Program-made: the position numbers and the translations under genes
Notes under the pieces: generated by a model
What the model saw: only the letters and a program-made list of their open reading frames with translations
Databases searched by the model: none
Told to the model about the DNA's origin: nothing
Assembly: GCF_053078305.1 (NCBI RefSeq)
Contig: NZ_CP166879.1
Direction: 5' to 3' (one strand)
DNA: 64,000 nt
Shown here: positions 43,473-48,053 of the stretch, piece after piece
Layout of the letters: every line of letters starts with the position of its first letter
Numbering within the stretch: the first letter of the stretch is position 1

Positions 43473-44765
43473 TTACCTGTTTTCCCATAATTTCAACATC
43501 GCTTTGTGCTCTTCCTTAAGCACAATATGCGAGCGTCTGGCTCGAATAAAGCTAATCGCTTCATCAACTGTTTTACAGTGTCCGTAACATAACAGCCATG
43601 CCGCCACTACCAGCGCACTGCGCGATAATCCCAATGCGCAATGGACCAGAACGCTGCCTTGCTCTTCGCGTAATGTTTCCAGCATCGCCACGGCCTGTCG
43701 GAGCTCCCCCTCTTCCGGAACCACCAGATCCAGCATCGGTACACAGAAATAGAGTCGATCTTTTGTCGCTCGTCCGCGAGGGAATTCAAAGGTGACATCC
43801 AGAACCGCATTCTGTGCCGGAATATGTCGTGGAAACGCCCCTAAATAAACACCAGCAGTCATTTTGCTCACCGGCTCCAGGCGACGACAAAACCAACGCA
43901 TAGATAGCCACATCCCGATGCGCCAGGGCAATGTCAGCCAGTAAACGGCGGGCGGGAGTTTCCCCTGACTATCTTTCCCTGTTGTTATCGCGCCAAGCCC
44001 ACCGTACCCACGGCCAATAATGAGTAGCGATAATACTGGCCAACATAACCAGACTGACCACCATAACTGAACCATCATCATTAGCTCCATCAACACAATG
44101 CACGCGCACGCGCCTACGACATATGGCTGTGCTATTTTGATTCGACGTTGATCAGGTTTCTGATAATTCCAACGACGGTCGACGGGTACCATCCAGTCAA
44201 TCAACATACCTACCGCCAGCCCTGTGATGACATCAATAAAATGATGCTGCCAGGTTGTCAGCGTCGAAATGGCGATGAGTAAAAACCATCCGCCGCAGAC
44301 TTTACGCCAACTCACAGCCAGATGCTGACGAAAGTGACGCCAAAGTAGCCAGCAGAGAATAATATGCAGCGAAGGAGACTGGTTATAAGGCAGATCAAAC
44401 AGTTCAAGTTGCGAAAATAGCCATCCTGTCACCCCACTCACTTCAGGACGGATAAAACTAAACTTCAGCGGGTAGAGAAAAAAACCGCAGCAGGCCATTA
44501 CCGTTGCCAGAATAAGCCGGTGGACAAGTCGGCGCTGTTCGAATGTCGAGCTACAAACGAACAGCGAAAATCCATATAAAAGATCCAGACTCCAGTAAGG
44601 AACAATAGTCCAGGGAAGAAAAGGGATCGCCGTTTCCCAGCCGAATACCTGACTGGGGATATCATGGCTGTTAAAGTCCTGAACCGCGGTGAACTGATTT
44701 AGAGATCCATAGGTGAAGAAGAAAAACGGGGCCAGCAACAATAACCAGCCAGCGCCTTGTAGCAA
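43473..44765 (-). CDS. ynbD: Membrane PAP2 phosphatase fused to dual-specificity (CX5R) phosphatase domain
   Basis: ORF 43473..44861; PAP2-like motifs (KFSFIRP, SPSLH, HHFID) in the TM region and HCALGLSRS in the C-terminal domain; start ambiguous (TTG 44765, GTG 44789, ATG 44828 or 44861); TTG chosen to match my recalled 430-aa length. Confidence 0.7.
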
Positions 44766-44778
44766 TACGTTCCGGCGT

Positions 44779-46536
44779 TCAGTTATCACGACGCACCGCC
44801 ATCGAAACCGTAAAAATGCCCCACTCATCAATCCGTTGAGTGCATTTATCAAATCCGGCATTACGCACGAGCGAATCCATCTCCCCTTGCGAACGCACGC
44901 GCATTACCCACGGTTTACCATCTTTATGACTGGTTAACACCCCGGCAATCAGCTCCAGTTGTGGGTGCCACGGCTGCCCGGTGTAGAGGAGAATGCCGCC
45001 CGGTTCGATGGCATTGGCAAGACCTGCGAGTGAGTTTTTTACCTGCTCATTTTCGGGAAAAAGCTCATACAGGCCAGAGACAATCGCCAGCGTAGGCCGC
45101 GGAGTTAACGCGCTGAGTTCCTCTGGGTTAAACGCATCGCCCTGTTCAAAACGCACCCGCCCAGACATTCCCCGTTGCGCAATCATCTCTTGCCCCTGTG
45201 CAACATTTAACTCGCTGTAATCACGTAACAAAATATCGCTTACGGCAGGCTCGTTTGCCAGCGCATCCAGTACATAGCGCCCATGCCCTGCGGCAATGTC
45301 AACCACGCGGACGGCTAAACCTTTGGCGTGGAGATCGGCAACGGCTTGTTTAATCAGTATTTGTAAATGGGTTTTGCGCTGGCGAATACCGCGCCAGCCA
45401 ACACTGTTCAGGTAGATTTTGTCGATTAAGCGCCCGAATGCGTTACTACCTTGCGGTTGATTTTGATAGACATAATCCAGCGAACTGCCTGAATCAAAGC
45501 CGGTGCTCATTCCGAGATGCAGGCCCGCAGAGTGCGTCCCGAACAATTTCATCGCTTTACGCATAAAGCGATACGCCAAATCAACCGGCGATAATGGCAC
45601 GGGTCCACCTGAAAGGAGCCGCCAGCGATCCGCTGATGGTCCAGTGCGGTCTTCATGCTGATAATCAAATTTTTGTGACTTGTTAGCATATAAACGACTA
45701 ATAAAGCTTTGCATTTTTTCAAATGCCTGCGCCCTGTTCTCTTCACCCAACGTGTCGTGATAAAAGCCAGGCAGCAGATGCAGCTCATTCAGAGGGCTAC
45801 GTAATCTCTGATAAAAATCAATCTGCGGTTGGCGATGCACCACATAGTCATCGCCTGATATCAGAAGTTGCGTGGGGAGCGTAATCGCCGCCGCATCGCT
45901 AACAATACGTTCAGACGTTTTATAAAGATCGAGCAAGATATTGACGGCAATCGCCCGTGTGATCAGCGGATCATTATTGAAACTCGCCACCCGTTGCCGA
46001 TCGTGGGTCAAATAGCGTCCTTTCACATAGGAATTAATAAAAAACAGACCACGCAGACGATGCCATAACGCCAGCGCAGGACGTGCCAGCGGCACATACA
46101 ATTTAACCTTAAAGGCCGGAGAAGCCAGCAGCAGCCCGCGAATTGCAGGCGCATAATCATGAACCCATGTGGCAACCAGTACTGCGCCGACGCTCTGCGC
46201 GATCACTACCACCTCTTCCAGCCCGACCTGGCTGTCGCTGGCAGCAAAACGGACAAACTCATCGACATCCCGCACTGAACGCGCAAGAGATGGGCTATAA
46301 CCACGGGGCCCCGAAGTTTGTCCATGCCCTCGGGCATCCCATGCATAAAAAGCAGTATCTGGCATCGCCAGTTCATCAACGATATGTTGTAGACGACCAG
46401 AATGTTCATGACCGCGATGAAATAAGACGATGACCTTTTTCGCCCCGGGCTGTAAAGCGGGCCAGTGCCGATAAAACAACGCTGTATTATCACTGGTGGT
46501 AAAAAAATGTTCCCCAGGGATGCGTGAATTTTCCAT
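44779..46536 (-). CDS. ynbC: Bifunctional alpha/beta-hydrolase (lysophospholipase-like) and SAM-dependent methyltransferase
   Basis: 585-aa ORF; nucleophile elbow AQSVG in N-terminal half; methyltransferase motif [15 protein letters not shown] in C-terminal half. Confidence 0.85.
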
Positions 46537-46551
46537 TTTCTCTATTTTCCT

Positions 46552-47448
46552 TCAGTAACAGCAGTAGCGAATAAAATAAAAAAATACCGGAGCGGTGAAA
46601 ATTAATGAGTCAATCCTGTCAAGGAGTCCGCCATGTCCTGGTAATAGTTTTCCGCTATCTTTAACACCCACATCTCGTTTGACGGCTGACATCACTACAT
46701 CGCCGCAAAAACCACTAATACCAATTAACAAACCCGCTAATAATGCCTGTAATGTATTTAGCGGTGTCAGCAACGGTCCAATAATCAGTGACGCAATCAT
46801 GGTGGTGATTACGCCCCCCACCAGACCTTCCAGCGTTTTTCCCGGGCTGACTTTGGGGACCACTTTTCTTCTGCCGCAGGATTTCCCCCATAAATACTGT
46901 GCAATATCGTTTGACTCTGTTAACGCCAAAAGAAATAACACCAGTAACGCCCCGCCCTGGGTATTTGTGGTTGGCAACATTAATAACCAGGCGGCATGAC
47001 TCAAGGCGAAAACGGTCATTATCCAGCCCCAAAAAATGGCGCTCACGGTATGCAGAAAACCGGAGGTATCACCTACTAAAACTCGCCAGGTGGTTAATAT
47101 CAGAAACCCAGCCAAAGGTATAAATAACAGAAACAGCTCAAAGCAATTAAAACCGATAAGCAAATAGTTAAGAGGAATAACCCAATATAACCAACGCGGA
47201 AAATGTACGGATATAAGCGTACAATATTCTTTCAATGCCAGAAAACTTATCAGCGCAAAAAACGTCAACGTCATCCAGCGTGGACCTGAAATCACCAGTG
47301 AAAAACAAATGACGATACCCCACCAGGTACGAATACGTAATGTAACTTCATCCTCTTTTCTCTCCGGTAACCGCCATACCCGAAAACGGTTTATCAGCGT
47401 TGCTAAAATTAACAACGCGAAAAGTGTTGCCAGAGATTTTTCCAGCAT
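46552..47448 (-). CDS. ynbB: CDP-diglyceride synthetase-like (CdsA-family) membrane protein
   Basis: 298-aa polytopic ORF; C-terminal CdsA signature SAVKRDVGVKDSGKLLPGHGGLLDRIDS. Confidence 0.85.
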   Translation of the reverse strand: MLEKSLATLFALLILATLINRFRVWRLPERKEDEVTLRIRTWWGIVICFSLVISGPRWMTLTFFALISFLALKEYCTLISVHFPRWLYWVIPLNYLLIGFNCFELFLLFIPLAGFLILTTWRVLVGDTSGFLHTVSAIFWGWIMTVFALSHAAWLLMLPTTNTQGGALLVLFLLALTESNDIAQYLWGKSCGRRKVVPKVSPGKTLEGLVGGVITTMIASLIIGPLLTPLNTLQALLAGLLIGISGFCGDVVMSAVKRDVGVKDSGKLLPGHGGLLDRIDSLIFTAPVFFYFIRYCCY

Positions 47449-48053
47449 TATCTTTCAGCACTCATCAGGAGCACACTCCGACAACGATTAATCGCAGTCC
47501 AGATAAGCAGAATTGAAGCAATGCCCCATAAAAGATTATTCCATTGCATCCACTGTGGATAAATGGCAACGGCCAGCCCCCACAACCCAAATATTAACGC
47601 ACGATCGCTTTTGCCGAATGGACCGGCATAACTGCGAATACCGTTAATCGTCTGCGCGAGTAAACCGCAAAACTCAGTCAATATGGTGAAAAATAACATG
47701 AGTATTACGAGTGATGCGTTACTTTCTGGTAAAAATAAAAACGGTAAATAGAGCGCAATATCGGAAATAACATCGCCAGTTTCATTCAAAATCGCCCCCA
47801 GACGTGTTTGCAGATTGCACTCACGCGCCAACATGCCATCCAGCGCATTGAGTGCCATACGGATAAAAAGCACGATGGGCAATAGCAAAAAGAGGATGGG
47901 TTGTGCGACCAACATCAACAGCAATCCGGTAATAAGAGAAAGCGCCAGTGCAGCAAGAGTGATGTGATTCGCTGTAACATGGTGCTTATAAAGCCAAAAC
48001 ATCGTCGGCCTTAACAGCGACTGAAAGAGCGGTTTTATCTGGTAGAGCGTCAT
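47448..48053 (-). CDS. ynbA: CDP-alcohol phosphatidyltransferase-family membrane protein
   Basis: ORF 47448..48059 trimmed to MTLYQIKPLF (201 aa); motif region ALDGMLAR...G...D...D; stop overlaps ynbB start. Confidence 0.85.
   Translation of the reverse strand: MTLYQIKPLFQSLLRPTMFWLYKHHVTANHITLAALALSLITGLLLMLVAQPILFLLLPIVLFIRMALNALDGMLARECNLQTRLGAILNETGDVISDIALYLPFLFLPESNASLVILMLFFTILTEFCGLLAQTINGIRSYAGPFGKSDRALIFGLWGLAVAIYPQWMQWNNLLWGIASILLIWTAINRCRSVLLMSAER

What the first reader, a model, noticed from the sequence alone, without database searches (positions are those of the whole stretch)
43473..48053. ynbABCD: compact four-gene operon that looks like a cryptic phospholipid or head-group pathway
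Motifs visible in the translations are: CDP-alcohol phosphatidyltransferase (ynbA), CdsA-type cytidylyltransferase signature (ynbB), lysophospholipase-like hydrolase fused to a SAM methyltransferase (ynbC), and a PAP2 lipid phosphatase fused to a CX5R phosphatase (ynbD). The genes are tightly packed with small overlaps, implying co-translation. Together they could activate a lipid as a CDP intermediate, transfer a head group, methylate it and dephosphorylate it; to my knowledge the product is not defined.
Basis: partly seen in the sequence, partly recalled or inferred. Interest (0 to 1): 0.65.

Follow-up and report, generated by a model that had tools for sequence, protein, structure and literature searches.

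The report
Orphan E. coli membrane-lipid operon ynbABCD
This is the real, intact ynbABCD operon of E. coli, one copy of a widely shared gene set that most likely makes and uses an unidentified membrane lipid; two of its enzymes differ from what their database names suggest.

Summary
Four tightly packed minus-strand ORFs at 43473-48053 are E. coli ynbA, ynbB, ynbC and ynbD.

- YnbA resembles a phosphatidylinositol-phosphate (PIP) synthase. In all 74 orthologs examined, two of the four signature aspartates, both metal ligands, are asparagine. The catalytic base and the two arginines that bind the acceptor phosphate are kept.
- The "PAP2 phosphatase" half of YnbD lacks the phosphate-binding Lys and Arg of motifs C1 and C3. 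Its model matches sphingomyelin/IPC synthases better than PgpB or LpxE. Published work shows YnbD does not replace C55-PP or PGP phosphatases.

In 80 genomes from several bacterial orders, the invariant core is YnbA+YnbC+YnbD, and natural A-C fusions exist. YnbB and a PlsC-like acyltransferase are accessory, and the acyltransferase is missing from the E. coli chromosome.

My model has three steps. A phosphatidyl-X-phosphate is built and trimmed on the cytoplasmic face by YnbB, YnbA and the YnbD CX5R domain. YnbC modifies it. The periplasm-facing, synthase-like YnbD domain then uses it as a head-group donor.

The product is unknown. Only YnbB has published function, as a CDP-DAG synthase and back-up for the glycolipid MPIase. 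Interest is moderate: a tractable orphan lipid pathway in a model organism.

The parts
47448..48053 (-). ynbA: a PIP-synthase-like CDP-alcohol phosphotransferase (201 aa) with a non-canonical metal site. N69 is encoded at 47847-47849 and N90 at 47784-47786.
   Evidence: - Pfam PF01066, 3e-8.
- The best NCBIfam matches are archaetidylinositol-P and PIP synthases, below their cut-offs.
- The family profile matches M. tuberculosis PIP synthase 6h53 at 4e-12.
- The motif N-x2-D-G-x2-A-R-E-x7-G-x3-N-E-x2-D-x3-D is invariant in 74 sequences.
- R151 and R190 align with the phosphate-binding R155 and R195 of the M. tuberculosis enzyme (PMC6506517).
46552..47448 (-). ynbB: a CdsA paralog and CDP-diacylglycerol synthase (298 aa). 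Its start overlaps the ynbA stop by 1 nt.
   Evidence: - Pfam PF01148, 2.4e-70.
- The signature S-x-V-K-R-x4-K-D...H-G-G-x-L-D-R-x-D is invariant in 63 orthologs.
- It scores below the CdsA equivalog cut-off (111 vs 385 bits).
- Published work reports that it makes CDP-DAG in vitro, supports MPIase but not bulk phospholipid synthesis, and is non-essential (PMC6362211, PMC7018664).
44779..46536 (-). ynbC: a cytoplasmic bifunctional protein (585 aa). The monoacylglycerol-lipase/lysophospholipase-like serine hydrolase covers residues 32-266 (about 45739-46443). The class I SAM methyltransferase PF12147 covers residues 275-582 (about 44791-45714).
   Evidence: - Pfam PF12146 (4e-66) and PF12147 (3e-152).
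- PDB sequence matches are to monoacylglycerol lipases, 3e-15.
- Ser115, Asp230, His260 and the HG motif are invariant in 82/82 sequences. D413xAAGxG, D439 and QPWHPQ are also invariant.
- The AlphaFold2 model of the methyltransferase domain has pLDDT 91.9. Its best solved matches are 3ocj, of unknown function, and small-molecule O- and C-methyltransferases.
44175..44789 (-). ynbD N-terminal membrane domain (residues 1 to about 205). It has the PAP2-superfamily fold of the sphingomyelin-synthase/IPC-synthase type. The catalytic triad is H142, H182 (44244-44246) and D186, and it probably faces the periplasm.
   Evidence: - Pfam PAP2_3, only 1.3e-3.
- H142 is conserved in 73/74 sequences; H182 and D186 in 74/74. 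The C1 Lys is variable and the C3 Arg is Val in 73/74.
- The AlphaFold2 model has pLDDT 90.1.
- Loop charge distribution places the triad on the periplasmic side.
43473..43850 (-). ynbD C-terminal dual-specificity (CX5R) phosphatase domain (residues 314-437, followed by the last codon and the stop codon), probably cytoplasmic. C384 is encoded at 43638-43640.
   Evidence: - Pfam DSPc, 1.4e-26.
- C384, R390 and the general acid D354 are invariant in 74/74 sequences.
- The family profile matches archaeal PTPs (3e-16), then the lipid phosphatase PTPMT1 (4e-13), ahead of MAP-kinase phosphatases.
- NCBIfam PRK12361 matches the TM+DSP module.
48054..48222 (-). The ydbD-ynbA intergenic region, which holds the ynbA promoter.
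   Evidence: [quoted passage not shown] I did not map the site. The sigma-70 consensus scan found no promoter-like site in this interval.

Best explanation
ynbABCD is the E. coli version of a horizontally mobile membrane-lipid module of three to six genes. Its obligatory core is YnbA+YnbC+YnbD. The E. coli chromosome has lost the acyltransferase gene.

**Most likely mechanism**
1. YnbB makes CDP-diacylglycerol, fed in other taxa by a PlsC-like acyltransferase. This activity is published for YnbB.
2. YnbA is PIP-synthase-like, keeps its catalytic base and both phosphate-binding arginines, and has a remodelled metal site with two Asp replaced by Asn. It transfers the phosphatidyl group to an anionic, probably phosphorylated, alcohol X-P. 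This is inferred.
3. The cytoplasmic CX5R domain of YnbD removes the extra phosphate, following the logic of PTPMT1 or a PIP phosphatase. This is inferred.
4. YnbC is fused to YnbA in some species. It deacylates and/or methylates the lipid, its head group or the acceptor. The activities are inferred from intact catalytic motifs, and the substrate is unknown.
5. The periplasm-facing N-terminal domain of YnbD is a sphingomyelin/IPC-synthase-like His-His-Asp enzyme rather than a classical phosphatase. It uses the finished lipid as a phospho-head-group donor to an envelope acceptor, or cleaves it like a phospholipase C, and releases diacylglycerol. The fold and motifs are shown; the reaction is inferred.

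The identity of X and of the acceptor is unknown.
For: **Gene linkage**
- In 80 genome loci chosen for a YnbC homolog, a YnbA family member is present in 79 and YnbD in 74. YnbB is present in 63 and the acyltransferase in 60.
- There are three gene orders, and the Morganellaceae carry only A-C-D.
- No other gene family is conserved across orders, apart from a small membrane protein confined largely to two orders. No dedicated acceptor-making enzyme is therefore linked.
- Natural YnbA-YnbC fusions exist: P0123 and P0151.

**YnbA**
- N69 and N90 replace the metal ligands D1 and D3. D72, the base D94, R151 and R190 are invariant.
- Residue roles are taken from PMC6506517.

**YnbD N-terminal domain**
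- The His-His-Asp triad is kept while the phosphate-binding Lys and Arg are lost.
- YnbD fails to complement C55-PP and PGP phosphatase mutants (PMC7413402).

**YnbD C-terminal domain**
- The active site is intact.
- PTPMT1 is the closest solved enzyme with a lipid substrate.

**Topology and selection**
- Lys/Arg-rich loops and the CX5R domain lie on one side, and the catalytic-triad loops on the other.
- The genes are under purifying selection in E. coli.
- YnbB makes CDP-DAG in vitro but cannot supply bulk phospholipid synthesis (PMC7018664). This fits hand-off of CDP-DAG to a partner, which is my inference.
Against: - No lipid product has been observed. No substrate is known for YnbA, YnbC or YnbD.
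- Losing two of four metal-binding aspartates could mean that YnbA has a different chemistry or is non-catalytic.
- The methyltransferase fold search gives no specific function.
- More distant YnbC-like proteins sit in ACP-KS-dehydratase-KR clusters without YnbA or YnbD. YnbC chemistry may therefore concern acyl chains rather than head groups.
- The topology rests only on the positive-inside rule and family precedent.
- The published complementation tests used one tagged overexpression construct.
- About 21% of complete E. coli genomes lack an intact copy, so any role is conditional.
Confidence: 0.45

Rival explanations
1. The operon is a dedicated or back-up route to the glycolipid MPIase. 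YnbB makes CDP-DAG, and YnbA, or YnbB itself as published, joins it to GlcNAc-1-phosphate to give GlcNAc-PP-DAG. YnbC and YnbD then trim or recycle pyrophosphate-linked intermediates.
For: - Overproduced YnbB raises MPIase. It rescues a cdsA knockout only when Tam41 supplies bulk CDP-DAG (PMC6362211 and PMC7018664).
- ynbB and cdsA are reported to be cold-induced (review PMC11413397).
- YnbA keeps the arginines that bind an anionic acceptor.
- ynbA and ynbB are translationally coupled.
Against: - A ynbB knockout leaves MPIase levels unchanged.
- MPIase is reported to be essential. Yet the locus is incomplete in about 21% of complete E. coli genomes, and YnbB is absent from the A-C-D clusters of Morganellaceae.
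- The cluster is common in Pseudomonas, Variovorax and Cupriavidus. No glycosyltransferase or sugar gene is linked to it.
- This model gives no role to a methyltransferase or lipase.
- YnbA, YnbC and YnbD have never been tested for MPIase.
Confidence: 0.15
2. A CDP-activated lipid receives a head group, is methylated, and is dephosphorylated by YnbD, with both YnbD domains acting as phosphatases. The product would be, for example, a methylated PG-like or PI-like lipid retained in the membrane.
For: - All the named domains are present.
- The pairing of a PIP-synthase-like YnbA with a phosphatase matches known PI and PG routes.
- PAP2 motifs C2 and C3 are recognisable.
Against: - The C1 Lys/Arg and the C3 Arg that hold the phosphate in PAP2 phosphatases are not conserved.
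- The nearest folds are transferases.
- YnbD does not replace PGP or C55-PP phosphatases in vivo.
- The two domains probably face opposite sides of the membrane.
Confidence: 0.2
3. The system centres on acyl chains. The hydrolase domain of YnbC releases a fatty acid or hydroxy-fatty acid from a dedicated lipid pool built by the other enzymes. Its methyltransferase domain converts that acid to a methyl ester, which could be a volatile or signalling lipid. A variant of this idea is that the pair acts like BioC/BioH, adding and then removing a methyl ester.
For: - The hydrolase and methyltransferase are always fused, with both active sites intact.
- Distant homologs follow ACP-ketosynthase-dehydratase-ketoreductase genes.
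- An acyltransferase accompanies the cluster in most taxa, and a patatin gene in one.
Against: - This model does not explain the strict linkage to a PIP-synthase-like YnbA or to the two-domain YnbD.
- No NCBIfam match to BioC or to known carboxyl methyltransferases was found.
- The fold search is non-specific.
Confidence: 0.12
4. In E. coli the locus is a cryptic, decaying remnant of a horizontally acquired island and has no current function.
For: - The acyltransferase gene is missing from the chromosome copy.
- About 21% of complete genomes lack at least 80% of the region.
- Knockouts are viable with weak phenotypes.
- ynbA and ynbB have low G+C, 0.42-0.45.
- A plasmid copy is truncated by IS66.
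Against: - dN/dS is 0.13-0.24 for all four genes.
- Every catalytic motif is intact.
- The promoter is regulated.
- Lonsdalea also has A-B-C-D without the acyltransferase, and Morganellaceae keep A-C-D alone. The acyltransferase is therefore dispensable.
Confidence: 0.08

Closest known systems
Bacterial phosphatidylinositol-phosphate synthase plus PIP phosphatase (M. tuberculosis PgsA1; archaeal AIP synthase)
   Same: - YnbA's best profile and structure-sequence matches are to this group.
- It has the same D2, the same base D4 and the same two phosphate-binding arginines.
- A phosphatase is encoded alongside it.
   Different: - D1 and D3, which are metal ligands, are Asn in all YnbA orthologs.
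- The M. tuberculosis R94 position is Val or Ile.
- YnbA scores far below the equivalog cut-offs.
- No inositol-phosphate synthase is linked.
- The linked phosphatase is a membrane-anchored CX5R domain.
Sphingomyelin synthase / IPC synthase (SMSr, AUR1), the transferase branch of the PAP2 superfamily
   Same: - The His-His-Asp triad is present without the phosphatase-type C1 motif.
- The HHFIDV segment resembles the SMS HYTxDV motif, which I recall from memory.
- The active site probably faces away from the cytoplasm.
   Different: - Sequence identity is only 10-13%.
- The bacteria concerned are not known to make ceramide.
- The domain is fused to a cytoplasmic CX5R phosphatase.
- Donor and acceptor are unknown.
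E. coli PAP2 phosphatases PgpB, YbjG and LpxT
   Same: They share the superfamily fold and the C2/C3 histidines.
   Different: - The C1 KX6RP motif and the C3 Arg are not conserved.
- YnbD does not complement C55-PP or PGP phosphatase deficiency (PMC7413402).
PTPMT1 (mitochondrial PGP phosphatase) and other dual-specificity phosphatases
   Same: - The CX5R loop and the general-acid Asp are invariant.
- PTPMT1 is the top solved match that has a lipid substrate.
   Different: - The P-loop sequence (H/C)CALGxSRS looks like those of protein DUSPs.
- Archaeal protein phosphatases score higher.
- YnbD does not rescue PGP phosphatase loss.
CdsA and the first step of MPIase synthesis
   Same: YnbB has the full CdsA catalytic signature. 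Published work shows CDP-DAG synthase activity and support of MPIase.
   Different: - Its N-terminal half is unrelated to CdsA.
- It cannot support bulk phospholipid synthesis.
- It is non-essential and accessory within the cluster.
Monoacylglycerol lipase / lysophospholipase (M. tuberculosis Rv0183, human MGLL; Pfam Hydrolase_4)
   Same: The YnbC N-terminal domain matches at 3e-15 and has an intact Ser-Asp-His triad.
   Different: It is always fused to a PF12147 methyltransferase, which has no characterised member.

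Membership tests
CDP-alcohol phosphotransferase (PF01066) | Match to the family profile | tested here: met
   PF01066 matches at 3.2e-8 for the single sequence. The family profile matches PIP synthase 6h53 at 3.7e-12.
CDP-alcohol phosphotransferase (PF01066) | Four-aspartate signature D1xxD2GxxAR...GxxxD3xxxD4 | tested here: not met
   D1 is N69 and D3 is N90 in all 74 sequences. D2, G, AR, G and D4 are kept. Every aligned solved enzyme has Asp at both positions.
PIP / AIP synthase subfamily | Two arginines that bind the acceptor phosphate (M. 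tuberculosis R155 and R195), and a score above the equivalog cut-off | tested here: inconclusive
   R151 and R190 align with those arginines and are invariant. The NCBIfam scores are 70.6 against a cut-off of 180 and 41.8 against 170. The M. tuberculosis R94 position is not basic.
CdsA phosphatidate cytidylyltransferase (PF01148) | Profile match and C-terminal catalytic signature | tested here: met
   PF01148 matches at 2.4e-70. The signature is invariant in 63 orthologs. The protein scores below the CdsA equivalog cut-off (111 vs 385), so it is a paralog.
CdsA phosphatidate cytidylyltransferase (PF01148) | CDP-DAG synthase activity | not testable with these tools
   The activity is reported in vitro in the literature (PMC7018664 citing Sato 2019).
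Alpha/beta serine hydrolase, MGL/lysophospholipase type (PF12146) | Profile match plus a Ser-Asp-His triad and the HG oxyanion motif | tested here: met
   PF12146 matches at 3.9e-66. S115, D230, H260 and HRGHEH are invariant in 82/82 sequences.
Class I SAM methyltransferase (PF12147) | Rossmann-type fold with a glycine-rich SAM motif and an acidic ribose-binding residue | tested here: met
   PF12147 matches at 2.9e-152. D413xAAGxG and D439 are invariant. The model has pLDDT 91.9 and matches solved methyltransferases. The substrate class is not determinable.
PAP2 lipid phosphate phosphatase | Motifs C1 KX6RP, C2 PSGH and C3 SRX5HX3D | tested here: not met
   - C1: the Lys position is variable (R36/K13/H11/T7/Q3), with spacing x4 rather than x6.
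- C3: the Arg is Val in 73/74 sequences.
- C2 (PSLH), the C3 His and the C3 Asp are kept.
PAP2 lipid phosphate phosphatase | Phosphatase activity on C55-PP or PGP | not testable with these tools
   The literature reports no complementation of either deficiency by overexpressed YnbD (PMC7413402).
Sphingomyelin/IPC synthase-like phosphotransferase (PAP2_3) | His-His-Asp triad without C1, and a six-helix core superimposable on SMSr or AUR1 | tested here: met
   [not shown]
Dual-specificity / PTP-type phosphatase (PF00782) | CX5R P-loop and a general-acid Asp | tested here: met
   DSPc matches at 1.4e-26. C384, R390 and D354 are invariant in 74/74 sequences.
Operon (single transcription unit) | Co-transcription of the four genes | not testable with these tools
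   The following are indirect support:
- overlaps or gaps of at most 15 nt;
- no excess of internal promoter-like or terminator-like sites;
- conserved linkage;
- a mapped promoter upstream of ynbA (PMC3950696).
Anti-phage defence system | Match to a PADLOC model | tested here: not met
   None of the five cluster proteins tested matched.

The most novel reading that the evidence does not exclude
Many Proteobacteria, including E. coli, carry a self-contained system with two stages. It first synthesises a dedicated, possibly methylated, anionic phospholipid on the cytoplasmic face, using a CDP-alcohol phosphotransferase with an Asn/Asn metal site. It then uses a sphingomyelin-synthase-like enzyme on the periplasmic face to transfer that head group onto an envelope molecule. 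This would be a previously unrecognised class of cell-envelope modification, and the first bacterial counterpart of SMS/IPC-synthase chemistry outside sphingolipid producers.
Probability: 0.2. Interest if true: 0.8.

Novelty: new variant of a known kind. Interest (0 to 1): 0.55.

Why it matters
E. coli K-12 lipid metabolism is often treated as essentially complete, yet this conserved operon of lipid enzymes has no known product. The analysis here makes the problem more tractable in four ways.
- The core to study is YnbA+YnbC+YnbD, not YnbB.
- Five-gene versions from Citrobacter or Snodgrassella may be better for heterologous expression than the E. coli version, which lacks the acyltransferase.
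- YnbA has an unusual metal site with specific residues to mutate.
- YnbD should be assayed as a head-group transferase or PLC-like enzyme at the periplasmic face, not only as a phosphatase.

The analysis also bears on the debated MPIase pathway, where only YnbB of this operon has been examined. If a new lipid or envelope modification emerges, it could affect envelope stress responses, because the promoter is under BglJ-RcsB control. It could also affect antibiotic permeability.

Tried and rejected
1. I first thought the Asn substitutions removed the catalytic base, so that a phosphate nucleophile might be used, giving PP-DAG products. The M. tuberculosis PgsA1 paper shows that D4 is the presumed base and that D1 and D3 are metal ligands. 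YnbA keeps D4, so I dropped that argument.
2. PGP as the intermediate (YnbA as a second PgsA, with the YnbD CX5R domain acting like PTPMT1) is disfavoured. YnbD does not rescue a pgpA pgpB pgpC mutant.
3. An anti-phage defence role is not supported: there are no PADLOC matches.
4. No Rfam family was found in the region and repeats are at chance level. The consensus scan found no convincing promoter or terminator.
5. Sequence search of the PDB with the methyltransferase profile found nothing better than E = 0.39. Foldseek against PDB and AFDB50 returned only generic small-molecule methyltransferases and uncharacterised homologs.
6. Four literature searches found nothing: operon names, PF12147, RefSeq product names, and combined enzyme names. 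Two key YnbB papers (PMIDs 30739787 and 38070879) are not held, so I cite them only through reviews.
7. I looked for a linked acceptor-making enzyme, such as an inositol-phosphate synthase, by clustering the flanking ORFs of 81 loci. None is conserved across orders.
8. The small 151-aa membrane protein of the Pseudomonas and Burkholderiales clusters has no Pfam or NCBIfam match.

Full report
**What is there**

The interval 43473-48053 holds four consecutive minus-strand ORFs. The DNA is 100% identical to an E. coli chromosome and 96.7% identical to K-12. RefSeq names the genes there as follows:
- ynbA: CDP-alcohol phosphatidyltransferase family.
- ynbB: phosphatidate cytidylyltransferase.
- ynbC: bifunctional alpha/beta hydrolase / class I SAM-dependent methyltransferase.
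- ynbD: phosphatase PAP2 / dual specificity phosphatase family.

Upstream lies ydbD. Downstream lie azoR, which is convergent, and hrpA.

The junctions are tight. The ynbA stop and ynbB start share one base (TAATG). The ynbB-ynbC gap is 15 nt. ynbC and ynbD overlap by 11 nt if the RefSeq GTG at 44789 is used. The longest ORF would start at ATG 44861 and overlap ynbC by 83 nt.

Consensus scans show no excess of internal promoter-like or terminator-like sites. There is no Rfam match and no meaningful repeat. dN/dS between this strain and K-12 is 0.125, 0.238, 0.165 and 0.227 for ynbA to ynbD. The value for azoR is 0.028. The ynb genes are therefore under purifying but somewhat relaxed selection.

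**Domain check**

- YnbA: PF01066, weak, 3e-8.
- YnbB: PF01148, 2e-70.
- YnbC: PF12146 (4e-66) plus PF12147 (3e-152).
- YnbD: DSPc (1e-26) at the C-terminus and a weak PAP2_3 match (1e-3) at the N-terminus.

None of the four proteins reaches an NCBIfam equivalog cut-off, so none is an ortholog of a named enzyme. The best NCBIfam matches for YnbA are archaetidylinositol-phosphate and phosphatidylinositol-phosphate synthases.

**The cluster beyond E. coli**

I aligned diverse full-length YnbC homologs from an exhaustive HMMER search. I used that alignment to fetch 80 genome loci. tblastn and ORF clustering show that only five protein families recur across bacterial orders:
- YnbC in 81 loci (the 80 fetched plus Snodgrassella).
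- YnbA in 79.
- YnbD in 74.
- YnbB in 63.
- A PlsC-like lysophospholipid acyltransferase in 60. It has PF01553 and intact HX4D and PEGTR motifs.

Four arrangements occur:
- A-B-AcT-C-D in Citrobacter, Hafnia and Snodgrassella.
- A-C-D-(small membrane protein)-AcT-B in Pseudomonas and Burkholderiales.
- A-C-D alone in Proteus, Providencia, Morganella and Xenorhabdus.
- A-B-C-D in E. coli and Lonsdalea.

The core is therefore YnbA+YnbC+YnbD. YnbB and the acyltransferase form a dispensable supply arm, presumably replaceable by the housekeeping CdsA and PlsC. Natural YnbA-YnbC fusion proteins exist: P0123 (807 aa) and P0151 (927 aa).

Three observations point to horizontal transfer:
- YnbC of Snodgrassella (Neisseriales) is 70% identical to the E. 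coli protein, while Proteus YnbC is 59% identical.
- Two E. coli plasmids carry an A-B-AcT-C copy whose D gene is truncated by IS66.
- The four-gene region with about 200 bp of flank on each side is at least 80% complete in 4274 of 5426 complete E. coli genomes.

**YnbA**

Every one of 74 family members has the motif N-x2-D-G-x2-A-R-E-x7-G-x3-N-E-x2-D-x3-D. Profile alignment to all solved CDP-alcohol phosphotransferases shows Asp in those enzymes where YnbA has N69 and N90. The solved set includes M. tuberculosis and Renibacterium PIP synthases and AF2299.

In M. tuberculosis PgsA1, D68 (D1), D71 and D89 (D3) hold Mg-1. D89 and D93 hold Mg-2, and D93 (D4) is the presumed catalytic base. R155 and R195 bind the phosphate of inositol phosphate (PMC6506517).

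YnbA keeps D2 (D72), the base (D94) and both arginines (R151, R190), all invariant. It replaces two metal ligands with carboxamides. This looks like a functional enzyme with a remodelled metal site and an anionic, probably phosphorylated, acceptor. It does not look like a decayed protein. The consequence for donor or metal use cannot be computed here.

**YnbD**

The C-terminal domain has an invariant C384-x5-R390 loop and general acid D354. Its family profile matches archaeal PTPs best (3e-16). Next comes PTPMT1, the mitochondrial PGP phosphatase (4e-13), ahead of MAP-kinase phosphatases.

The N-terminal domain keeps the PAP2 catalytic His-His-Asp: H142 in 73/74 sequences, H182 and D186 in 74/74. 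It lacks a conserved C1 Lys, and the C3 Arg is Val.

This agrees with experiment. Overexpressed YnbD rescues neither C55-PP phosphatase-deficient nor PGP phosphatase-deficient E. coli. A strain lacking all four PAP2 genes is viable (PMC7413402).

Averaged over 74 orthologs, Lys/Arg-rich loops and the CX5R domain fall on one side of the membrane. The loops carrying the catalytic triad fall on the other. By the positive-inside rule and family precedent, the synthase-like site is periplasmic and the CX5R domain cytoplasmic. This is an inference.

**YnbC**

There is no signal peptide or transmembrane segment. The hydrolase domain resembles monoacylglycerol lipases and has an invariant Ser115/Asp230/His260 triad. 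The methyltransferase domain has invariant SAM-binding motifs and a family-specific QPWHPQ motif.

Its model (pLDDT 91.9) matches a Bordetella protein of unknown function (3ocj) and natural-product O- and C-methyltransferases. AFDB50 returns only uncharacterised homologs. PF12147 has no literature in the library.

More distant YnbC-like proteins (31-33% identity) occur without YnbA or YnbD, after ACP-ketosynthase-dehydratase-ketoreductase genes. One lies next to a PEMT/ICMT-family methyltransferase. An acyl-chain or carboxyl substrate therefore remains possible.

**What is already known**

- YnbB is a CdsA paralog that makes CDP-DAG in vitro.
- When overproduced, YnbB raises the glycolipid MPIase. 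It rescues a cdsA knockout only together with Tam41.
- YnbB is non-essential, and its loss has no effect on MPIase level (PMC6362211, PMC7018664).
- A review reports cold induction of ynbB (PMC11413397).
- A ynbC transposon mutant accumulates polyphosphate in one strain background but not in Keio strains (PMC2435150).
- I found no paper on YnbA or YnbC function, on a positive function for YnbD, or on the operon's product.

**Best explanation**

The operon encodes a specialised phospholipid head-group pathway. YnbB supplies CDP-DAG, probably handing it directly to YnbA. YnbA makes phosphatidyl-X-phosphate. The cytoplasmic CX5R domain of YnbD dephosphorylates it. YnbC deacylates and/or methylates the lipid or its precursor. 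The periplasmic, synthase-like YnbD domain uses the lipid as a phospho-head-group donor, or cleaves it, and releases diacylglycerol.

- Shown: domain identities, motif states, fold similarity, gene linkage and fusions.
- Inferred: substrates, order of steps, topology and acceptor.

I put about 0.45 on this outline. The rivals are:
- an MPIase-dedicated route (0.15);
- an acyl-chain or methyl-ester system centred on YnbC (0.12);
- a functionless remnant (0.08).

**Novelty and interest**

The genes are catalogued and one has published activity, so the locus itself is not new. I found no description of the following:
- the Asn/Asn YnbA subfamily;
- the synthase-like nature and probable two-sided topology of YnbD;
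- the A-C-D core with A-C fusions;
- the acyltransferase missing from the E. coli chromosome.

I rate it a new variant of a known kind, a CDP-DAG-dependent head-group pathway. Interest is about 0.55. It is not a surprise in principle, but it is a well-defined and experimentally accessible orphan pathway in the best-studied bacterium.

Noticed in passing
L090 (E. coli plasmid NZ_CP027341.1, 52460-56562): Two of 5426 complete E. coli genomes carry a second, divergent ynb-like cluster on a plasmid of about 105 kb. It has A-B-acyltransferase-C, and the D gene is cut to 62 aa by an IS66 element. This is direct evidence that the module is mobile.
   Followed up: partly
window 43300-48300 compared with 5426 E. 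coli genomes: Only 4274 genomes (79%) hold at least 80% of the region in one piece. Strain XJ5.2 lacks ynbB and part of ynbC. Strains A21 and BLK9 (the latter engineered) match only the azoR edge.
   Followed up: partly
window 46537-46551: The ynbB-ynbC spacer is only 15 nt, whereas most other taxa have a 0.6-kb PlsC-like acyltransferase gene between them. One E. coli protein record (P0002, 889 aa) is a YnbB-YnbC read-through fusion.
   Followed up: partly
window 44765-44861: The ynbD start is ambiguous. ATG 44861 gives 462 aa with an 83-nt overlap with ynbC. GTG 44789 gives 438 aa and is the RefSeq choice. TTG 44765 would give 430 aa. Ortholog alignments begin near the GTG.
   Followed up: partly
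L085 2649-8779 and L086 2733-8749: Distant YnbC-like hydrolase-methyltransferases (31-33% identity) follow an ACP, ketosynthase, MaoC dehydratase, ketoreductase and PF10118 gene set. No YnbA or YnbD is present. This may be a separate acyl-chain pathway that uses the same bifunctional enzyme type.
   Followed up: no
L036 13082-13537, and 46 other Burkholderiales, Pseudomonadales, Neisseriales and MAG loci: A conserved small membrane protein of about 150 aa lies between ynbD and the acyltransferase gene. It has no Pfam or NCBIfam match and is absent from E. coli.
   Followed up: partly
window 46500-48250 versus 43500-46500: G+C is 0.42-0.45 over ynbA, ynbB and the upstream ydbD region, but 0.48-0.54 over ynbC and ynbD. 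The composition is mosaic within one operon.
   Followed up: no
AFDB entries A0A077ZK33 (Trichuris, 1855 aa) and A0AA39CRN9 (Knufia, 1016 aa): Eukaryote-labelled proteins contain YnbC-like domains. The Trichuris entry is 96% identical to E. coli and looks like bacterial contamination merged into one gene model. The fungal entry (52% identity) looks like a YnbC-YnbD fusion of uncertain origin.
   Followed up: no
window 48223-50535: The upstream gene ydbD (770 aa) is annotated in RefSeq as a DUF2773 domain-containing bactofilin. It lies in the same low-G+C stretch and points the same way as ynbA. It is not linked to the cluster in other taxa.
   Followed up: no
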